A DNA stretch of 64,000 nt from Cyanophora paradoxa CCMP329 (taxonomy: Eukaryota > Plantae > Glaucophyta), in the NCBI GenBank assembly GCA_004431415.1, contig QPMI01000522.1, forward strand, positions 248,001 through 312,000. The letters are read 5' to 3'. Within the stretch, counting starts at the first letter, position 1, and each line of letters begins with the position of its first letter. The position numbers and the translations under genes were made by a program. Of the stretch, positions 1,106-64,000 are shown piece after piece. The notes beneath the pieces were generated by a model. It had not been told where the DNA came from. It did no database searches and worked only from the letters and a program-made list of their open reading frames with translations.

Positions 1106-4100
1106 CTACTGCATGGGGCACTGGGGCTGCTGCCCGCCGTGCCCCGGCGGCCGCGGCGCCGGGACCAGCATCTTGGGGTCTGTAACAACCTGCGGGCGCT
1201 CGAGCCTCAGCCCAAGTATCGCTTAAGGATAGGCTAGGCTAGGCTTGGCTTGGCTAGCCACCCCCCACTCTCCTACTCCTCGTGACCTGACCTGGAGGCG
1301 CTGGTCGATGATCTGGATGAGGTCCGTACCCGGCCCGTCGCAGATTGTGAAGATCTCCTTCGCTTTCCTGTACCCCCGGGGGACTTCAGGGGCAGGGCGG
1401 GCGACGCGGGGAGCCGCCGCACCGCAGGTGGTCGGCGGAGCGCTCGAAGAGGCGCCGGCGCAGCGCGACGGGCGCCTGCCGCGACCGTGAGGCGGGGGGA
1501 AGGGGGAAGTCCGAGGGGGGTACGCGCACGGTGGTGCCCTTCTGGTGGTAGCGGTCGGCGAGGGCCATGAGGAACTGGCCCCGCTCGGGGTGGAACGGCG
1601 GCAGGCACGCTTCCGCGTTCGCCAGCACCTGCCGAGGCTCGGCGTCAGCGCCAAGGAGAGGCTCGGGTTCAGGATACTAGTTATAGGAGCCTAAGAAGAA
1701 GAAGAGCTAGACGTGGCGCTCCGGCGCCTGTTCTACTGCACCGGGACGGGCGTCGGGAGCGGCGGGGACGGGGCCTCACCTCGCGGCCGTGGACGATGGC
1801 CTGGTCGGTCTCGTTGACGCGCATGTAGCACTGCAGGAGCAGCATGTTGCAGTGCAGCAGCAGCGAGTGGTTCTTGTGCAGCTTCTCCTTGTGCTCCGAC
1901 ATCACCTGAGGCCGCCCGGCGCTCGTTTGTTTGTTTGGTTCCGTGCGGTGCGGTCTTGCAGGCGCGGGGGCGGCACCTTCTCGATGGCGGCGGCGGCCTT
2001 GGCGAAGTCTGGCTGGGGCGGCTGCACACCGGGCGGCGCGCTCGGCTGCAGGCGGGGCGGGGCGGGGCTCAGGGACGGAGGCGGAGGCGGGGGCGGAAGG
2101 GACCGGGCGCGCCGACATGAGTTCGCGGGCGCGGCCGGCGGCCTCAGAAACGGCCCGGACGAGCCGCCCGACCTCGGCGTCGGGGCGCTTCGCCTTGCAC
2201 TTGGTGCAGCGCCAGTGCAGCACGTTCACCGGGCCCGGCACGCCCGGCGGCAGCCCGTCGTGCGAGTGGGCATCCCCCTGCGGTGCGGTACGGTTAGAGG
2301 GAGAAGAAGAAGAGAAGTGCGTGGGAGGGGTACGGCAGCGCACGTGGTCGTGGCCGCAGCAGCCGTCCCCGTGCACGTGGCCCTCCCCCCCCTCCTTCTT
2401 CTCCCCCCCCTCCTTCTTCTTCTCCTCGGTCCCCGCCTCCTTCTCGCCGGCCTTGCCCGCATCCGCAGCAGCCTTTGCCGGGGCGTCCTCGTGCAAGCCC
2501 TGCGGGGAAAGGGCCCTCGGCGGGGGGGTACGCAGGGCGGGGCGGGGCGGGGTAGACGGGCCTCGATGATGGGGACGAGGTACCCCCCGCACTTTTGGGA
2601 GAAGCACTTGACGCCGTTGAGGTACCGGCCCTGCTCGTCCGGCGACAGGCACCGCGGGCACCTGCGGGCCCCCGGCCGGACCGTGAGCGGAGGCGGGGAG
2701 GGGGGGTACAGGGGGCCCGGCTGCGCGCGCCTGCAGCAGAAGAACTTCGCCGCGCGGAGGTTCGCGTGCCGCTCGGGGGTAGAGCGCCACTGCTCCGCGT
2801 ACGAGACCTGGGGGAGGTTCGGCTCAGACAGGGCAGGGGCGGGTGGCGGGGGGTACGGGGCGTGCGCGCCGTGAGCTCGGAGCCGGCGGGGACGTCGGTG
2901 AGGCAGTGGACGGAGACGCGGCCGCGGCGGCTGGAGAAGCCGCAGTTCGGCACGCAGGAGTGCCCGAAGAGGGCTGCCTTGCAGTAGATTCCGGTACCCA
3001 GGTTGCGGTCCAGGGGCCCGTCCCCCGTGGCGAACGCGTTCACAACGATGCGCCCGATCCAGCTGCGGCGCGGCCCGAGCCTAAGAGAAGAGGACGGCCG
3101 GGCCGGGAGGGGCGGGGCGGGGCGGAAGGGGCGGGCCGACCCGACGACAAGGTCCCGGGTGATTGACTCGGGCTCGCCCTCCTTGCCCCGGATCGACTCG
3201 GGAAGATGCGCCAGAAGCCGCTCCGCCGCCGCCGCGAACACTAGGGAAGGTGGGCGGAGGAGGGAGGGAGGGGAGGGAGGGGGAGGGGTACGCTCGCGCA
3301 CTGGCGGCGTGCTGCGGGGGGAACTTGTCCAAGTGGGACTCCAGGCCCATGAACTCCGCGTACTTGCCCTTGGGCATCTTTCCCTTGCCCTCCAGGTGCC
3401 TGCCGCCGCCCCCGGCCCGTCAGTCAGCAGCGGGGCACCGCACCTCCTGCTCCCTCCCGCCCCCGCCCCCTCCCCCCTCACTTGGAGATGGCGATGCGGA
3501 AGCAGGTCCAAAGGAGGAAGGGATCGATGCGGAGTTCCATGGCCGAGTGCAGAACGTTCCGCAGGACATCGCCTGCCGCGCCGCGTCGGCGGGGCGGGCG
3601 GGCGGGCGGCGCGGGACGGGAGGGAGCGGGGGATGGGAGGCGCGGGGCCGGGGCCGGCGCGCACACTCGATGGAGTGCAGCGCTTCGTTCTTCTTCGCGC
3701 ACTCGGGCGAGCAGTACGGCAGGTCGCACTTCTTGCACCGGTGCGGCGCCGGCTTCCCCTCCTCGCGATCCACCTGCCCCCCCCCCGCCCGCCCCGGGTC
3801 ACGCGCCCGACCCACTTAGCTACGCGCCGGCCGCCGCCCCCCGGTGCCGCTCGCGCGCCCAGCCGACAGATAGGATGCTATTTGACCACGAGCCGGCCGC
3901 CCTCGCGCTCAACGCGGGGCTCCATTCGAAAGAAAGCCCCGGTCGATCCCGCGACTGGCGCACCTCGGAGGTGCAGCACAGGCAGACCATCAGAATCCGC
4001 GGGACGTTGGGGTGCGTCACGAAGTGGTCACTGCGCGCCGTGAGGGAGGCGCGTGAGAATGGCGGGGCAGCTCCGGTCACCGCGCGCGCGAAGTGCCCCG

Positions 4101-4419
4101 CGAGGCAGAGGCGGCGCGCGCTGGGTGCATGTGCCATTCTAGGTGGGACGCAGGCGCTCGCGCACTCTACGAGAACGACCTCGCCGGGCTTCACGTCGCG
4201 GGTCGGGACGATGAACCGGCCCTTCTCGGCAGACTCGCGGATCTCCAGGAGAGCTCCGATCTTCCCGATCACCTTCGAGGGCGCTGCCGGTGCTGCCGGT
4301 GCTGCGGGCGCGGCCGCCGGCGCGACGGGAGCGTCCGACGCGGCCGGAGCCGACTCGCTCGTCTGGGGCTCCGCCTGCGCCTTCGCGCCTGCACCGCCAC
4401 CTCCCTTCTTCTTTCCCAT
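1106..4419 (-). CDS. SET and MYND domain (SMYD-family) lysine methyltransferase with C-terminal TPR-like region and CaaX box; multi-exon
   Basis: Split SET-N (EKGRFIVPTRDVKPGEVVLVE), MYND finger (CLCC..RCKKCDLPYCSPECAKKNEALHSIEC), SET-C (IVVNAF..GTGIYCKAALFGHSCVPNC..ELT|VSY), post-SET cysteines (FFCC.., WRCTKC); last exon 1189-1106 reads VVTDPKMLVPAPRPPGHGGQQPQCPMQ*. Confidence 0.85.
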
Positions 4420-47727: not shown

Positions 47728-48233
47728 CAGTGATGGTATTCCGAATTAACCCAAAAATGGACCATTTCGGAAACGTTTCCGAAATATTTCGGAAATATTT
47801 CCGAAATATTTCCGAAATCAGGGGCCCCTCCCGAGGGCCCTTCTGCTGATGCCTGACGCTCCCTTTAACCTTCTTATGCTTTCCTTATTGGTAACAGTCC
47901 AGTTTCGTGTCTTCCGAATCATCAGAACATGCGACAGTACCAAAGGGAAATTCACACCTCGTACCCCCTGCCAGCCTTGTTGGCGGCTGAGTTCCGGTTC
48001 TAGACGTCTACGATAGACTCCTATCGTGTTATATAACCTTTCTATCACGTTTCCTATCATTTTAATGCGTTGTTTCGCCGTGTTTCGCGCAAAATGTGGC
48101 AAAACGAAAGTACCCCCCCTTTATTAGAAACAATTCCTAATTAGGGGGGTCTCTCGGGACCTTTTCGGAAACAATTTCGAAATTGATTTCGAAATTGTTT
48201 ATAGAAATGTTTCTAGAAAAAATGCCATCACTG
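47728..48233. mobile_element. Non-autonomous hAT-type DNA transposon (MITE), 506 bp
   Basis: TIRs CAGTGATGGTATT / AATGCCATCACTG; perfect 8-bp target duplication GCTGCAGG at 47720-47727 and 48234-48241; subterminal TTTC(C/G)GAAA arrays at both ends. Confidence 0.9.
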
Positions 48234-54989: not shown

Positions 54990-55537
54990 TGCAACATGCG
55001 CCTGCACATACATGTACATGCACATCCTCGTCTTGCAATTGCACCTGTATACGTACGTATACATGCATATATATATAAATGTGTGTGGGACATGGGGGTA
55101 CGGAAAATTTGCGGTAGCGCGACGATTACGGCGGCGCAGCGGGCCAGGTTTCCCACCCGTGGGTTCCTGATAACGCTGCGTGTCAAGCTGCTCGGAAAGT
55201 CGCGCGCCAGCTCCACCCGACCCCCGTAGCCAGAACGCGCTAGATAGACCAGCCGGGCGTGCACGGACAGCCGACACGAGCACATCATCACCAAGCGCGA
55301 CCGCCGAAGTCGATAGCCCGCCCCCGGAGCGCCAGGCAGCCCCGCCAACCTCGCCGCGTCATCTTTTTTGAATTCCACGGACCCCCGGACCTCACCTGCG
55401 CCCTGCGCGGAGCGCAAAGCACTCGCCCTGCCTCTCCCGATAGAAGATAAGAGCTCTTAAGCAACTGAACTGCCGCCCAGTCCCCGCGCATTGCGCCCCG
55501 ATGCGGACACTCACTCGCTGCCTGTCACACCGCAGAC

Positions 55538-56821
55538 ATGAGCCGATCATCCACGGACGACACACCGGATGTCGCCGCCATGCCCGGCGAACGACGTAGA
55601 CCGTGCTTGCGCGACGCTCGCCGGCGCCCAGGCCCCGCGGGCCCACGCCCCCGCCCCCTTTCCCCCGGACTGGGCCCAAAGGGCGCCCACCTGGGCTCCT
55701 CCCCCCCGAGGCCGGTACAGAAGCGTGTACGCTCGGACCCCCTGCCCCCCCGTCCGCAGTCCGAGCCAGACGAGGCCCGCCCGGACCCGGCCTTCAAGCC
55801 GGCCCCCGCCCTCCCGCCCCAGCGCCCCGCCCTCGCCCTCCGGCTCCAGCGCCCCGCCCCCGCCCTCCGGCTCCAGCGCCCCGCCCTCGCCCTCCGGCTC
55901 CTGCGCCCCGCCCCCGCCCTCCGGCTCCTGCGCCCCGCCCCCGCCCTCCGGCTCCAGCACCCCGCCCCGCCCTCCGGCTCCAGCGCCCCGCCCCCGCCCT
56001 TCGGCTCCAGCGCCCCGCCCCCGCCCCCAGCTCCAGCTCCCCGCCCTCGCCCTCCGGCTCCAGCGCCCTGCCCCGCCCTCCGGCTCCCGCGCCCCGCCCC
56101 CGCCCTCCGGCTCCCGCGCCCCGCCCCCGCCCCCAGCTCCAGCACCCCGCCCCCGCCCTCCGGCTCCAGCGCCCCGCCCCCGCCCTCCGGCTCCAGCAGA
56201 CCGCCCCCGCCCTCCAGCTCCCGCGCCCCGCCCCCGCCCTCCGGCTCCAGCGCCCCGCCCCCGCCCTCCAGCTCCCGCGCCCCGCCCCGCCCTCCGGCTC
56301 CATCAGACCGCCCCCGCCCTCCAGCTCTAGCGCCCCGCCCCCGCCCTCCGGCTCCCGCGCCCCGCCCCCGCCCTCCTGCCCCAGCGCCCCGCCCCGCCCC
56401 CAGCTCCAGCGCCCCGCCCCGCCCTCCCGCCCAAGCGCCCCGCCCCGCCCTAGGCCTCCCGCCCCAGCGCCCCGCCCCCGCCCTCCTGCTCCAGCGCTCC
56501 GCCCCTGCCCTCCTGCTCCAGCACCCCGCCCCCGCCCTCCGGCTCCAGCGCCCCGCCCCGCTCCCAGCCCGTCACCCTTCCCGCCCGCCCCCCCAGCTTC
56601 CCGATTCCAGCGCCTCACTCCCGCCATCCTCCAGCGCTCCGTGTACCCCACTCCCTGCCCTTCTCCCCCCCCCCTACGCCGTGCCTCGGCGGGCACGCCT
56701 GCTGCTCTCCCCCTGCCCCGTGCGCCTCGCCTTCCCCCTCCCCTCCTTTTCCACAGGACCAAGGACACCAACGCCTCAGGCCCTCCTAAAGCCGCAGATC
56801 GATAGCTCCCAGCTAGGATAA
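55538..56821 (+). CDS. Pro-rich ORF running through the minisatellite; coding status doubtful
   Basis: 427-aa ORF with non-repetitive N-terminus (..PVQKRVRSDP..), then PALRLQRPA / PPPSGSSAP repeats; the repeat is open in all frames. Confidence 0.3.
   Translation: MSRSSTDDTPDVAAMPGERRRPCLRDARRRPGPAGPRPRPLSPGLGPKGAHLGSSPPRPVQKRVRSDPLPPRPQSEPDEARPDPAFKPAPALPPQRPALALRLQRPAPALRLQRPALALRLLRPAPALRLLRPAPALRLQHPAPPSGSSAPPPPFGSSAPPPPPAPAPRPRPPAPAPCPALRLPRPAPALRLPRPAPAPSSSTPPPPSGSSAPPPPSGSSRPPPPSSSRAPPPPSGSSAPPPPSSSRAPPRPPAPSDRPRPPALAPRPRPPAPAPRPRPPAPAPRPAPSSSAPPRPPAQAPRPALGLPPQRPAPALLLQRSAPALLLQHPAPALRLQRPAPLPARHPSRPPPQLPDSSASLPPSSSAPCTPLPALLPPPYAVPRRARLLLSPCPVRLAFPLPSFSTGPRTPTPQALLKPQIDSSQLG
55800..56565 (+). 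repeat. C-rich minisatellite, ~27-bp unit CCCCGCCCTCCGGCTCCAGCGCCCCGC
   Basis: More than 20 variant tandem units read directly. Confidence 0.9.
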
Positions 56822-57493
56822 GATAGCAGGACGTCTTCCCTCTATGCCGCAGAGCCTCAGAGCTAGCCTAGGTGCCCCCCCATGTCGACGTTAACGACGG
56901 GGCGGCGGTTGTTGTCATTAATATGAACATTGCCCGGTTGGGCTTTTGCAAAAACAATATATAAATGTGTGTGTACATGTACATGTAAATTAAACGTACA
57001 ATCGATATCTGCAGCTGATCATGGGAACACGGACGTTGACAATTTCAAGATTGCATATGGCCCGGCCCAGTACTAGTGGCATTTCAGACATTGCACGCAT
57101 GATCTTGCAATATTGTTTTTAATTGATCATGTATAGGTCAACGAAATTCTCTCCATTCCCTCCAAATCGACGTGCCTCCCCAAGGCCTCCGGATCCGCAT
57201 CCATACCCCCCCCCTCCCTCCCCCCCGCTTCCCCACCCGGGCCCCACCCTCCCCGCACTTCCCCTCAATCATTGTATTCAATATTCGCATTTCCCGCAAT
57301 AGCCTAGTAGCCACATAGGCCCCCCAATTGCAAGTCCATTAATATTCCTGCTTCGCACTGGCAGCTGCAAGGGTCGCTTCAATCAGGCTTGTTGTACAGT
57401 CGTCTAAGCTTTTATATATAGTACTAGTTGAGGGAATTCGAATTCGAAGGGCGCGCGCCGCGGCGCTCGCGCTCGCCAATTGCAAGAAACTCG

Positions 57494-59022
57494 TCAGGCG
57501 CACGCCTCCAAGAGCTCGCCGCCGGCGCTCACGCCTGCTTCAAGTTCGAATTCGGTGTCGAGTTCCATCGCCTTGTCCTCGATCTCGAACTCGAATTCTT
57601 CATCGGATGCCTGCGCAACAGGTTGGAGACGCGGTCTTGCTTGCGATCGCGAGTGGCAGCTTACCTCTTGCACGTCGTTGTCGAGAATCCGCTGCGCGCA
57701 CTGCGTGTGCATTGTTCATCACAAGCCGCTGATCATGATTCGGCACTAGTACTGCAGCTGAGGGACTATATATACTATGATAAATACGCACAAATTTCAT
57801 CGGCTCGCCGTTTTTATATCCGCTGTGGCAGTAGTTGCTCTTGCAGTCCTCGTTTTTGTAGCACTTGTAGCCGTTGTTGCACTTGCTAATATTACTGGAA
57901 GCACAGTGCCCGCCGCAGTCCACATCGCTTTCGCAGATTGTGTTGCCAGGACACCTCGTGCTTTCCTCACCGTCGTGGCTCTTGTTGTAGCAGTGCGCGA
58001 TGGTCTTCTTCTCGGTCTCCTCCACGAACATATACTGGATTCCCGAATTGCCGAAATGGGTGTTCAACTGATGTTCATGTACATGCATGTGGTGGCGTGT
58101 GAGTATACGTATCGCAGAATTAGTGTCGCAGCGCTAGCGCACATCAGATTTGTTTACCTGCGAAACGGGCTGAACAAAAAAAGATTGGGCATAAAAAAAA
58201 GTAGAAACTTTCTTACACATATCGGCCCGACAATGTAGTCCGTTTCTTTGTAATCCTTGAACGCTTTCTCCGCCGCCAAAGCAAAAGATTCCGGGATGCC
58301 TGCATGTGTAATATTAAATAATTTTTTTCAGAGTGCAATTTCCGAGCGTACGAGTGGCCTGGCAATTGCGCATCATGATCACTCACTTGGAAGAATGTTC
58401 AACCAAAAGAGCTGCATATTTGCGCCAGGGGTTCCATTCTCATACTGCGGCGGTTCGAATTCCATGACGAAAGTGCAGCTAATTTTATGAATGAACTCTC
58501 AAGCATGGTCATGCATATGGCCGACGCACGTCTTCGATCGCCTCTACGTATTTTTTATCTGCGCCGCCTCCAAACTTGATTTTGTAACTGAAATTGAAGA
58601 GATCAAGAGGCGCGCGGGCAAGGATGTGAGCCATCAAAGTGACTCATAATCAGTGACTTGCCCATCCTTGACGCAAACCGAGTTTACCCAACCGCGGATC
58701 CCTCGTGGCAGCTGCGGGTCGGATGAGGTCCGGGAGGACCGCAGCTGCGTGGTTCTAGATCTAGATCTCTCCCGGGCACGAACCTACCTTGGGTAAGGGA
58801 TCCTCCATCTTTCCGTTGAATCCCCTTGATCCAAAGTTGGAACCGCCGGACCGACCCTGGCACTATTTCGCAGCATCCCGACGCATTTAGACTTTGAGAC
58901 AGGGCAATTTTGAACTCGACATTTTCGAATTCAGCTGCGCACGTTCGTATCTTGGAAGATGCGCAATGCGAATAGCATGTCTGCGTCGCCACTGCCAGTA
59001 ACACCGTCGGCTTTCGGAGCAT
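57494..59022 (-). CDS. Spliced, lower-GC gene for a probably secreted protein with a DVDCGG-type Cys-rich module and acidic tail
   Basis: HCYNKSHDGEE..CESDVDCGGHC..KCNNGYKCYKNEDCKSNYCHSG; exon ITHAGIPESFALAAEKAFKDYKETDYIVGP; tail ASDEEFEFEIEDKAMELDTEFELEAG..EACA*; TATAAAT at ~59084-59090 upstream of MLRKPTVLLAVA. Confidence 0.55.
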
Positions 59023-59442
59023 AATTGATCTGCGCAGTCCAGCAACCGTCGGACTAAGTCGCCACGACCCGGCCGCGGTGGCCATTTATATTGCCAGGCC
59101 TAGGTGCATCGGCAACATGTACAGGCCTATATATATATCCTATATATAGATAGCTCGGCGTGCAAACCTGATAATGCACTGCGCGCGCGCGCGCTCGCGG
59201 TCGGCCGCGTCAGAATAGCAGAGACCGTGCAAACCACCGTGGCCCAGTGGCACGGTGCACGTGCACGGTTGCAAATGTGGTGCACCTTTTTCCCAGTCCT
59301 TGTTCTCGGGCGACGAGGTGCACGTCGGACCAGCTGCAGGTTTAGAGCTTGATCCGCCCATTTTCAAGCAAGCGCTAGCTTAAGTTGTGCGAGCTTAAGC
59401 TTAAGATCTTTGTCGATGTCGAGCTCCGGTCCAGCTGCGCGA

Positions 59443-59629
59443 GATATATACGTATATATACGTACACGTACTACTATAGCTAGCGCTACGTGTACGTATA
59501 AGTATACGTATACGTATACGTATATATTACGTATAGGCGTAATAAACCGCCGCGGCCCGGCGGCGGCGCCGGCGCGGCCGGTACGTACGCCACGGTACGC
59601 GTACGCGCGTATACCTATATATATATATA
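59443..59629. repeat. Alternating purine-pyrimidine, palindrome-rich tract ending in (TA)n
   Basis: Perfect 14-bp stem TATACGTACACGTA (59457-59470) / TACGTGTACGTATA (59487-59500); (GTATAC)n; TA run to 59629. Confidence 0.8.
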
Positions 59630-59986
59630 CGAGGGCCATCAATGGGCCAAACGCGAAAAGTCAACTCCGAGAGCTCGAGACTCGGAAGTGACGCTTGGAT
59701 TGCGGAGGTTCTTATAACCGCCGCAACAGCTGTGGGGGTACCCCCTCCGAGGCTGGCGATCGCGGCGATCACGACCCTGGCGATCGCGATTTTCTCCCGA
59801 TCGCGACCCTTTTCGATCGCGATTTCGAGATCGGGGACATTAATGCGATCGCGAGAAAGGAAAAATCGGAAAAGGCCGAAAAGTGCCGTTTTCACGCGTG
59901 AAATCGATCGAAAACGAGGGTTCGAATCCCGGGCCCGGATTTGGACTTGGTCAGAATCTCGAGTCAAAATGGGAGAAAAATGTGAC

Positions 59987-60070
59987 CTGGGACTTGGGAC
60001 TTGGACTTGGACTTGGGACTTGGGACTTGGACTTGGGACTTGGAAGAGTTGGAATCAGAGTCTGGACCCA
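59987..60070 (+). repeat. (GGGACTT/GGACTT)n module 1 with conserved GGAAGAGTT..GTCTGG.CCCA tail
   Basis: Direct reading; tail shared with modules 2 and 3. Confidence 0.9.
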
Positions 60071-60143
60071 AAAGCGGGGAAATTTTCGGACGGGGAGAAA
60101 AATGTCAGGCAATCTCTATTACGATTTTCCCTTTGAGTTGAAT

Positions 60144-60572
60144 ATGGCATTCGAGAGGTTGCGCGAGTTCTGGCGTTGGCACCTCACGGGACATGACATC
60201 CCCGACGTAACACCAGAGCCCAACACACAGGGCGTGCTTGAAGTCATCCGTCAATATCCGCGTCGATTCAATGAATGGATTGAGTTCCACGCGACGAGCC
60301 GTTTCCAGAGCCTCCCCGAGGCCATACGCGAAAATTTCGTGAGGCTGGTGGGACCAGGCTACGACAACCCTAACAATCATAGACCACGCCCAGCTGGCGT
60401 GACACGCGAAGCTCGAGAAGACCGTAGACTTTTCCGCAGGGAATTGAGAGAGGATAGACGGAGGCTTTCAATGGGGCTCCCGCAGATTGTGAGGGGGTAC
60501 AGCCCGGATTACGAGACTTACCAAGAATTGTACGGCTTCGAAAATCCCTTTGAGAGGGCACTACCAGGGTGA
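60144..60572 (+). CDS. Intronless hypothetical protein of the element (alternative ATG at 60102)
   Basis: MAFERLREFWRWHLTGHDIPDVTPEP..YQELYGFENPFERALPG*; natural amino-acid composition; the upstream extension in the ORF track is repeat translation. Confidence 0.6.
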   Translation: MAFERLREFWRWHLTGHDIPDVTPEPNTQGVLEVIRQYPRRFNEWIEFHATSRFQSLPEAIRENFVRLVGPGYDNPNNHRPRPAGVTREAREDRRLFRRELREDRRRLSMGLPQIVRGYSPDYETYQELYGFENPFERALPG

Positions 60573-60911
60573 GGGGCCAGGGGGGCCCCTGAGGGTGTAC
60601 CCCCCACCCGAGACTCGACCTTCGGCGGACGCACTCGGGCGATTTCCGTCAGGCCGGCTCCCTTTTTCTGCCTTCGGTCCAACGCTAAATTTGGCTTTTT
60701 TCAGGCCAGTTGGCAACGTTTTCCGTTGCGAACTAGACCGCGAAAAAAATCGCCCACAAAACCGCGGTCCGCCGCCATTTTGGCTCACTCTTGAAACGGG
60801 TTCGCCGCCTTCTCTCAGCCCAAGGAAACCCCGCCTCTCCGAATTTTCACAAGTCCGCCCTCACAGTCACCTCACGTTTTGCCTTTGCTGATTTCTTTTC
60901 CCTTTGCGCAG

Positions 60912-61981
60912 ATGTCGATTCCCGCTGAGCTTGCCGAGGACTTCGCCTTTGTCCAAGCAACGTGGGCTAACTCCGGTGGCACTCAAGGGGCTACCCCTGA
61001 GATGGAGCAGCGCGCCGACGCTCTGGGGTACATCTACAATTATGCCATCTTACGCGCCACTGGCCCCGAAGTGCAACTTCTCCCCAAGTCCGCCTTCACG
61101 TCCAAGGCCAAGAAATCCAAGTCCAAGCAACCCAAGCCCGAGCCCCCCGTCGACGTGCCCCCCGTCCCCGGCTGGGTCAAGACCGCCAACGGCTGGGGCG
61201 ACCCCAAGCTTTTCGCCGAGTCTGCTGCCGAGACGCTCGCCTGGGCCTACCCCCTCAAGTCTTCACGAATTACCCCCCTCCGTCATCGTCGTCATCTGCC
61301 CCTCAGCCCGTCGCCGAGCCCGCCCCCGAGCCCGCCGATGACGCCAAGTCCGAGGCCTCTGACGTCGAGTCTGACATCAACGACTTCATCGACTTTGACG
61401 TGCCGATTCCATACGACTCTGAGTCGTCTTCTGACTCTGAAGGCGACAACGAAAACCCGACTCGCAAGCGCCGCATTATCAAGACCAAGTCAATCGTCAA
61501 GAAGAAGTTCATGGAGACTACGTCATTCACCGACAACTCCGAGCGCGTCAAGGACCCCGCCAAGGCACACGAGAAGGACTTGAAGCTCGGCGCCGGCATT
61601 GCCCGTTCTCGCGTGACGTCACACTACAGCGAGCGCCTGACTCAGCACGTCAAGACCATTGAGAAGCGCGTCCTCTGCAACGAGCTCCGCAAGGAGTTGG
61701 AGCGCAAGCGGCGCCACGAGCGCCTTGTCCAGTACCAGATCAACAAGGCGCGGATCGCCGAGCGCAAGCAGAAGGAGGCGGCCGAGCTCAAGGCGCGCAT
61801 CGAGGCTCAGCAGCAGCGCGAGGCAGAGGCGGCAGCGGCCTTGGCGGCGCAGCGCGAGCGCGAGCGGCAGGACTTGGTGCAGGCAGCGCAGTCCCTTCCC
61901 CGCATTCCCCTTAAGTCGGCGCCCGAGGGCCTCATTGAGTTGGTTTCCGATGACGATGACTCTGACTTTGAGATGCTGTAA
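60912..61981 (+). CDS. Element-encoded nuclear coiled-coil protein (one gene with a 1-bp frameshift at the C run ~61250-61254)
   Basis: MSIPAELAEDFAF..TLAWAYP continues in the -1 frame as PQVFTNYPPPSSSSSAPQPVAEPAPEPADDAKSEASDVESD..PTRKRRIIK..coiled coil..LIELVSDDDDSDFEML*; strong codon bias in both parts. Confidence 0.7.
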
Positions 61982-62053
61982 ATAGTATTGCGTCATTCCA
62001 TTGTACATACTTGTAAAAATTGGCCGACTATTCAGTTACGACTTGGCGCGATC

Positions 62054-62171
62054 CTGGGACTTGGGACTTGGGACTTGGGACTTGGGACTTGGGACTTGGG
62101 ACTTGGGAAGAGTTAGACTCAGGGTCTGGGCCCAGAATCTCTCTGGATCTGAGAGTTTGCCGCGCCAAGTC
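62054..62171 (+). repeat. (GGGACTT)7 module 2, left arm of an inverted repeat
   Basis: Heptamer array plus ~65-bp tail aligning with the reverse complement of 62487-62549. Confidence 0.9.
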
Positions 62172-62394
62172 CCTAACCACCGGGCAGACATGTAGAGGGG
62201 TACGGAAATCTGCATATGACGTTTCTGGTGACATTCCAGGTGAGATTTCAAGCGAGGTAGAGTCTGAACTGGTGTACGACTTGTAGCATGATACTGGACA
62301 TGAAAGCTCACGAGAGTATGCAACCGAAAACGGATGTGAAGAGGGGTAGGAGTTTTCGTGTGAGATGTCGAGAGAAGGAGGGTACGAGATGGGA

Positions 62395-62469
62395 TACGAG
62401 TAAAAAAGACTACGAGTAAAAAGACTACGAGTAAAAAAGAGTATGAGGAGTGGTAGGAGTAAAAAAGTC
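62395..62469 (+). repeat. 16-bp iteron-like direct repeats TACGAGTAAAAAAGAC
   Basis: Two exact copies (62395, 62411) and two variants (62427, 62454). Confidence 0.85.
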
Positions 62470-62486
62470 GGTAGAAAAACTCACCT

Positions 62487-62632
62487 GACTTGTCTGACAA
62501 ATTTCTGATCCTGGAGAAAGTCTGGGCCGGGACCTGGGTTTCAACTCTTCCCAAGTCCCAAGTCCCAAGTCCCAAGTCCCAAGTCCCAAGTCCCAAGTCC
62601 CAAGTCCCAAGTCCCAAGTCCCAAGTCCCAGG
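62487..62632 (-). repeat. (GGGACTT)11 module 3, inverted; right arm
   Basis: Eleven CCCAAGT units at 62550-62626 preceded by the reverse-complemented tail. Confidence 0.9.
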
Positions 62633-62653
62633 TTTTTCTGAACCTAGGGCAAA

Positions 62654-63019
62654 ATGGCCCTGCTCCGGTGCACCGACTCGCAAGACGTCGCCTACAACGT
62701 CCTGGTCAACTCGGACGTACCCCCGAGTGCCTTGGAGTTTCCCTGGAGAGTGGACAGGGACAGGGTGAGCAAGACGTTTGGAGGGCGCAAGCACTACCTC
62801 TCCCAGCTGATCCTCGGGAAGTCGCCACGTGGACGCTACGTGGAACACATCAACGGCAACCCGCTGGACTACAGGAGGGAGAACCTGCGCTGGGCATCAA
62901 TGTCGGAGATTCGCAAGAAGAGGAGGGGGTACGCCAATTTACAGGAGAAGAGCGAGGAGATTCGGGAGATGATGGAGGCGACACAGGTGCTAATGCAGCT
63001 TAGCCAGTCTAGACGCTAG
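62654..63019 (+). CDS. HNH (HNH_3-type) endonuclease-like protein, active site degenerate
   Basis: YLSQLILGKSPRGRYVEHINGNPLDYRRENLRW matches the phage/virus pattern LHRLI.G....VDHINGN.LDNRR.NLR. Confidence 0.8.
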   Translation: MALLRCTDSQDVAYNVLVNSDVPPSALEFPWRVDRDRVSKTFGGRKHYLSQLILGKSPRGRYVEHINGNPLDYRRENLRWASMSEIRKKRRGYANLQEKSEEIREMMEATQVLMQLSQSRR

Positions 63020-63821
63020 TGGTGTGAATCTTGGTGTCGTACTCGCGACCGACCGTTTCCCAGGCCACGTAAACTTCGGCTCCGGCGCCTGGCGCTGTCG
63101 AGTTGGTAGTCGCAGTCGTGTAGTCCGCCTCTGCCTCAATTAGTTCGGCCATGAGGGTAGAGCCCACGACCATTCCAGAGGTAGGCATTCCGGCGATGTT
63201 GTTGTACAATTTGAAAGTGAATTTCGTGAAGAGGAGCCGGGGCCAGACCTGGGTACGGGGATTCGAGGCGCCGTATGAATAATCGGTACCCGAGGCGCCG
63301 CCCGTGGTGGCATTCGTCATCATCTCCTTTGCGGTCATCTTCCAGAGGTTGTACATCTCAAAGGGAACGGCCTGCGTGGTCTTGTGTGTGGCATCGATGA
63401 GGGCGCCATCTAAATGCGTTTTGATGTTCGGATTCGCACCATTCCCGAATTTGCGAGTGAGGGCGGTGTTAGCGGTGAACTTGAGTTCGAGCACGCGAAT
63501 GGCGGGCCGATCAGGCACAGAGGGCTCTATCTTTTTCAGGAGGCCCGAGAGCCAGAGCGCCTCCGCCTCATCCGCGCTCACGCCCGAGTCGATGTCAAAG
63601 TACACGTACACGGAGCAGGAGGCGGGATTCTCGAAATCGTTGGAGGTGACGCGCAACATGACGGGATTCTGGACCCTCACGGTGAGCGGGGTGGCGTAGT
63701 TTCCGTCCCACTCCACCTTGTCCGTCCCTGCGTTGGCCACGTTCCCAGCGTTGCCGTAGAAATCGGGGACGATCGAGCCGGCAGACACGGTCTTCACGAT
63801 GGTGGCCGAGGTGGTCGGCAT
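63009..63821 (-). CDS. Intronless 270-aa beta-rich protein, candidate virion structural protein
   Basis: Thr/Ala/Gly/Asn-rich with many alternating beta-strand segments (LTVRVQ, SVYVYFDI, IRVLELKF, FTFKLY, EVYVAW); no recognised motif. Confidence 0.65.
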   Translation of the reverse strand: MPTTSATIVKTVSAGSIVPDFYGNAGNVANAGTDKVEWDGNYATPLTVRVQNPVMLRVTSNDFENPASCSVYVYFDIDSGVSADEAEALWLSGLLKKIEPSVPDRPAIRVLELKFTANTALTRKFGNGANPNIKTHLDGALIDATHKTTQAVPFEMYNLWKMTAKEMMTNATTGGASGTDYSYGASNPRTQVWPRLLFTKFTFKLYNNIAGMPTSGMVVGSTLMAELIEAEADYTTATTNSTAPGAGAEVYVAWETVGREYDTKIHTTSV

Positions 63822-63844
63822 TTTGCGACCTCAAATGAGAAAGA

Positions 63845-64000
63845 TTATCCGTGAAAGAGGGTGATGTCGCCACCGATGTTCATGACGCGGGCCCCAGGCA
63901 CAGAGTCAGCGTCGGTGCCGTACGCGTAGGAAATCGAGCACTCACGCAGCTCCGCGCAGAGGCTGGCGCCCGTGCTGAAGTGGGGCTGGTCGGCGGCGTA
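63845..64000 (-). CDS. 3' end of a further element gene (absent from the ORF track; 5' part outside the window)
   Basis: Open frame from 64000: YAADQPHFSTGASLCAELRECSISYAYGTDADSVPGARVMNIGGDITLFHG*, stop at 63845-63847, 23 bp before the next ATG. Confidence 0.6.
   Translation of the reverse strand, partial: YAADQPHFSTGASLCAELRECSISYAYGTDADSVPGARVMNIGGDITLFHG

What the first reader, a model, noticed from the sequence alone, without database searches (positions are those of the whole stretch)
59630..64000. Left arm of an endogenous virus-like element of unrecognised type
Seen: after 59 kb of genes broken every 50-200 bp by introns, the style changes abruptly. Five compact ORFs follow with no coding introns, an 11-bp convergent overlap, a 23-bp spacer, an HNH gene and repeat motifs found nowhere else in the window. 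Known: protist genomes carry integrated Polinton-like viruses and virophages with this compact layout, HNH/GIY-YIG genes and divergent jelly-roll capsids that are hard to recognise by eye. Inference: 63009-63821 and the gene ending at 63845 start a structural module. I recognise no hallmark gene, so the class is unproven and could be new.
Basis: partly seen in the sequence, partly recalled or inferred. Interest (0 to 1): 0.9.

Follow-up and report, generated by a model that had tools for sequence, protein, structure and literature searches.

The report
Algal mobile element with twin SSBs
This is the left end of a mobile DNA element present in dozens of copies in an alga's genome, and its two paired genes are predicted to be phage-type single-stranded-DNA-binding proteins rather than the capsid proteins first suspected, so it is likely the replication arm of an integrating virus-derived element of a family that is still unnamed.

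The parts
59616..59629 (.). Host (TA)7 run, the insertion target; the longest TA run in the window
   Evidence: loose ends of other copies at 59617-59623 in 4 of 4 runs laid
59630..59684 (+). Left terminus of the element (starts CGAG). A single-copy 55-bp version of this stretch, ending CTCG and followed by a TA run, lies elsewhere in the genome
   Evidence: depth step; records 3 and 15 and the X9 loose end at 59684
59750..59860 (.). Subterminal cluster of five short palindromic repeats; one variant carries an extra 11-bp unit
   Evidence: table 4
59984..60085 (+). 7-bp-unit array 1 plus conserved tail, just upstream of ORF1; likely protein-binding sites (inferred)
60102..60572 (+). ORF1, 156 aa, Arg-rich C-half, no known family
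60912..61981 (+). ORF2, likely one ~357-aa gene with a frame switch near 61240; acidic and basic tracts and a predicted coiled coil; no known family
62053..62143 (+). Array 2 plus tail: left arm of an 89-nt inverted repeat (89% complementary)
62144..62513 (.). 370-bp non-coding core (GC 0.46, purine-skewed, 15-bp repeats) between the inverted arms; origin-like layout (inferred)
62514..62632 (-). Array 3 plus tail: right arm of the inverted repeat
62654..63019 (+). HNH_3-family protein, 121 aa. The His is kept, but the second Asn of the motif (motif recalled) is replaced, so it is likely a DNA binder or weak nickase
   Evidence: 8 cluster members
63009..63821 (-). Gene A, 270 aa, predicted T7/Enc34-type OB fold without an acidic tail
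63845..64000 (-). 3' end (51 codons) of gene B, 226 aa in other copies; paralog of A, predicted OB fold
   Evidence: (P0059 ends in the same 51 residues)

Best explanation
The DNA from 59,630 onward is the left arm of a mobile element that sits in dozens of copies next to TA runs in this alga's genome, and its paired genes A and B are predicted to be phage T7-type single-stranded-DNA-binding proteins, so this arm is likely the replication module of an integrating, virus-derived element. Shown: sharp terminus, TA-run target, many copies, conserved HNH-A-B order, and A/B paralogy with co-divergence across subtypes. Predicted: the OB fold. Inferred: an enzyme encoded beyond the window (tyrosine recombinase or TA-targeting transposase) inserts and excises the element. 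The free form would replicate by strand displacement, and A and B together would coat the displaced strand, as the two SSBs P12 and P19 do in phage PRD1 (analogy only). The three repeat arrays would be binding sites for an element protein, with arrays 2 and 3 flanking an origin. Capsid and packaging genes would lie further right.
Confidence: 0.55

Rival explanations
1. A and B are the structural proteins: a heteromeric OB-fold pair that wraps the element's DNA into a filamentous nucleocapsid, making this a new virus architecture.
For: Fixed tandem pair diverging in step. No acidic tail, and tail-less Enc34 ORF6 binds dsDNA as well as ssDNA. Composition rich in small polar residues, with variation concentrated in loops and termini. 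The family is unlike any known SSB family in sequence.
Against: I recall no OB-fold major capsid protein, and one paper search gave none by title or abstract start. The conserved basic and aromatic residues fit an SSB equally well. There are no particle data.
Confidence: 0.12
2. A capsid-less DNA transposon (TA-targeting DDE or tyrosine-recombinase type) that carries captured phage-type SSB and HNH genes to help its own DNA intermediates.
For: TA-run target; a terminus that starts CGAG; a 55-bp miniature bounded by CGAG and CTCG between TA runs; subterminal repeats. No virion gene in 4.4 kb. The likeness of the terminus to mariner ends is recalled, not tested.
Against: Five compact genes of phage/virus type are unusual cargo. 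The host is known to hold 366 PLV-type capsid genes, so a virus-type right half is plausible.
Confidence: 0.22
3. One reading: A and B are divergent jelly-roll capsid proteins starting a structural module.
For: Beta-rich, compact, paired; a weak atlas lead to a phage cement-protein family (cosine 0.84, a level shuffled proteins often reach).
Against: The confident model of B has an OB-type order of elements, with helices between strands 2/3 and 3/4, and its top structural matches are OB folds.
Confidence: 0.05
4. Chimeric assembly or contaminant DNA.
For: No single record spans the whole laid stretch.
Against: Junction contig in two runs, many independent flanks, and gene models on 41 contigs.
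Confidence: 0.02

Closest known systems
T7-type SSBs (T7 gp2.5, Enc34 ORF6/DUF2815, ASFV CP312R, giant-virus and gamadvirus SSBs)
   Same: Predicted OB barrel with the helix after strand 2 and the same order of extra strands; conserved basic and aromatic residues.
Polinton-like viruses endogenous in protists, including the 366 MCP genes in C. paradoxa (PMC10120064 Table S4) and its adintovirus-like elements (PMC8502044)
   Same: Integrated, multi-copy, compact genes, HNH, sharp terminus with subterminal repeats.
   Different: No MCP, penton, ATPase, pPolB or integrase seen in the window. No SSB is mentioned in the main text of four PLV papers searched for the term. The TA-run target does not look like a random 5-6-bp duplication.
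Mriyaviricetes (Gamadviridae)
   Same: Small eukaryotic DNA viruses with a predicted T7-like SSB.
   Different: One SSB; two double jelly-roll MCPs and HUH not seen here; the word stem 'integrat' does not occur in that paper's main text.
Tectivirus PRD1 P12/P19
   Same: Two SSBs in a linear DNA virus; P12 lacks an acidic tip.
   Different: P12 has an open pincer fold and was not among the listed fold hits; analogy only.
TA-targeting transposons (Tc1/mariner; tyrosine-recombinase elements)
   Same: TA context, short inverted terminal 4-mers in the miniature copy.
   Different: No transposase or recombinase in the window; the right end is unknown; the resemblance is recalled.

Membership tests
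Polinton-like viruses | Double jelly-roll major capsid protein | not testable with these tools
   Downstream DNA unavailable (no loci)
Polinton-like viruses | A or B is a single jelly-roll penton | tested here: inconclusive
   Models match OB folds with low Z; an unlisted family is not formally excluded
Polinton-like viruses | A32/FtsK packaging ATPase, pPolB or primase-helicase | not testable with these tools
   Not in the window; the rest of the element was not read
Polinton-like viruses | Terminal inverted repeats and an integrase (rve or tyrosine recombinase) | not testable with these tools
   Only the left end is held
Polinton-like viruses | Integrated in many copies with a sharp terminus | tested here: met
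T7-type SSB | OB barrel superposing on gp2.5/Enc34 at a significant score | tested here: inconclusive
T7-type SSB | Capping helix directly after strand 2, with extra strands in the Enc34 order | tested here: met
   On the predicted model: helix 67-75 after strand 53-59 against the description in PMC5686142; strand names assigned by me
T7-type SSB | Long acidic C-terminal tail | tested here: not met
   1-3 Asp/Glu in the last 20 residues, 10 of 10 proteins
T7-type SSB | Binds ssDNA | not testable with these tools
   Needs an assay
HNH_3 endonuclease | Pfam PF13392 above cut-off | tested here: met
   31.1 bits against 24.8
HNH_3 endonuclease | Full metal-binding motif (second Asn; motif recalled) | tested here: inconclusive
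   His65 kept; Tyr and Ile stand where Asn residues are recalled; no alignment to a solved HNH was obtained
Mriyaviricetes | Two DJR MCPs, HUH endonuclease, VLTF2/3, ATPase | not testable with these tools
   Not in the window
Tc1/mariner-type transposon | TA duplication, TIRs, DDE transposase | tested here: inconclusive
   Left flanks are TA runs longer than one dinucleotide; right end and enzyme not held

The most novel reading that the evidence does not exclude
A new kind of integrating eukaryotic DNA virus whose particle is built from two paralogous, tail-less OB-fold proteins, that is, SSBs turned into a nucleocapsid, and which targets TA microsatellites.
Probability: 0.12. Interest if true: 0.92.

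Novelty: new variant of a known kind. Interest (0 to 1): 0.6.

Why it matters
Surveys of protist endogenous viruses key on jelly-roll capsids and pPolB. This family has no sequence match in Pfam, PHROGs, NCBIfam or the PDB, and only four environmental homologs turned up in two very large protein collections, yet it occupies dozens of sites in a culturable model alga. If it is a PLV, it would supply an SSB pair for a group in which the papers searched here name none, a link to tectivirus- or T7-type replication. If it has no jelly-roll capsid, it is a class of mobile element or virus that capsid-based screens miss. Reading a few complete copies would settle which.

Full report
Observation. The layout is as described: ORFs at 60102-60572, 60912-61981 (two frames), 62654-63019, 63009-63821 and a gene cut by the window end at 63845-64000, with an 11-bp overlap and a 23-bp spacer. 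The HNH call passes Pfam's cut-off. A 7-bp unit forms three arrays found only here (20 matches against 0.03 expected). Each array is followed by a related tail (21-26 of 41-42 bases shared), and arrays 2 and 3 form 89-nt inverted arms around a 370-bp core. The two middle ORFs are likely one gene with a frame switch near 61240, by codon bias. GC falls at about 56750, not at the junction.

Host and copy number. Near-identical proteins are gene models named from Cyanophora paradoxa in EukProt. Gene A has named models on 33 contigs, gene B on 23 (plus one fused model), and the HNH on 7 (one cluster looked up): 41 contigs in all. A and B carry consecutive gene numbers on 18 of the 23 B contigs, and the HNH is the next number on at least three contigs by gene name. 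Laying contigs of four runs on 57500-59925 gave depth 67 (X1) and 21 (X9) on the host side, and 3,341-4,240 and 605-1,240 on element contigs. The ratio is about 30-60; the tool warns that depth is no copy number, but it agrees with the gene count. The species is reported as likely haploid (PMC6704402, passages).

The end. Loose ends with different flanks lie at 59617-59623 in all four runs (14 rows shown, 32 not shown), so other copies also start right after a TA run. Here the run is the longest in the window. A 154-nt contig at single-copy depth joins 59532 to 59650 in both DNA runs; it enters the element by only 20 bases. A single-copy 55-bp piece equal to 59630-59684 (6 differences in 66 bases) lies elsewhere between TA runs, bounded by CGAG and CTCG. 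A spliced contig on the minus strand ends at 59444, so the insertion lies about 190 bp from a host gene's 5' exon (all). This makes a chimera unlikely and shows a TA-run-targeting mobile element.

Genes A and B. The cut gene is 226 aa in other copies (P0059 ends in the window's 51 residues). A and B align along their length (hhalign 98.7%, E 4.5e-16) at 26-27% identity, form two clades that each hold environmental members, and diverge in step between loci (18 sequences chosen from the full-length models). A profile of both found 12 of 1.84 billion representatives: nine algal models, two Logan singletons and one false hit. Two more homologs (ENA, Logan) came. The family is therefore very small and has no named relatives.

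Mechanism. Shown: terminus, target, multiplicity, gene order, paralogy. Predicted: OB fold. Inferred: an unseen recombinase or transposase integrates at TA runs; the free element replicates with exposed single strands, which A and B coat; the arrays bind an element protein, perhaps the HNH derivative, whose second Asn is replaced (motif recalled); arrays 2 and 3 flank an origin. I put this at 0.55, a capsid-less transposon at 0.22, an OB-fold nucleocapsid at 0.12, jelly-roll capsids at 0.05 and an artefact at 0.02. A-B binding is untested.

What is known. C. paradoxa holds 366 PLV-type MCP genes in two clusters of 272 and 94 (PMC10120064: passages, part 2 of 7 of the text, supplementary rows), adintovirus-like elements (PMC8502044, passages) and giant-virus insertions (PMC12344493, abstract and passages). 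Endogenous viruses in this alga are therefore not new, and this element may be the arm of one of those PLVs. T7-like SSBs are reported in gamadviruses and nucleocytoviricots (PMC11253617 and PMC11410667, passages), and PRD1 has two SSBs (PMC11886824, passages). PLVs integrate by rve or tyrosine recombinase (PMC12220804: passages, section 10, supplementary rows). Term searches in PMC11071308, PMC12220804 and preprints 10.64898/2026.10.13.758929 and 10.64898/2026.06.19.733378 found no SSB. Paper searches, read as listings, showed no description of this gene pair. Preprint supplements and the annotated EVE datasets of PMC10120064 were not seen and may include these loci.

Verdict. A real, recently mobile, multi-copy element with an unreported pair of predicted OB-fold genes. 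Class unproven; new variant of a known kind; interest 0.6.

Noticed in passing
window 55071-55087 and 56957-56973: A 17-bp direct repeat flanks a ~1.87-kb block with a 27-bp tandem array of 28 copies (55802-56559); it looks like a separate insertion with a target duplication. An earlier count gave slightly wrong coordinates; these are corrected.
   Followed up: partly
window 47764-48200: An 11-bp array and an AT-rich block unlike the host style; possibly a small transposon.
   Followed up: no
window 57600-59444, minus strand: A host gene with spliced 5' exons and a Cys-rich ORF (weak DUF7107, E 0.1) ends about 190 bp left of the insertion.
   Followed up: partly
window 59623-59925 (records 9 and 12): In two runs guessed to be RNA, a deep contig joins another flank to the element's left end: possible read-through into a copy at another locus.
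   Followed up: no
window 59630-59684: A solo 55-bp copy of the terminus between TA runs elsewhere in the genome; it may reveal the recombination site.
   Followed up: partly
EukProt models P0001, P0014, P0018, P0024, P0027, P0069: The host annotation fuses or cuts A and B with false introns, which hides these intronless genes.
   Followed up: yes
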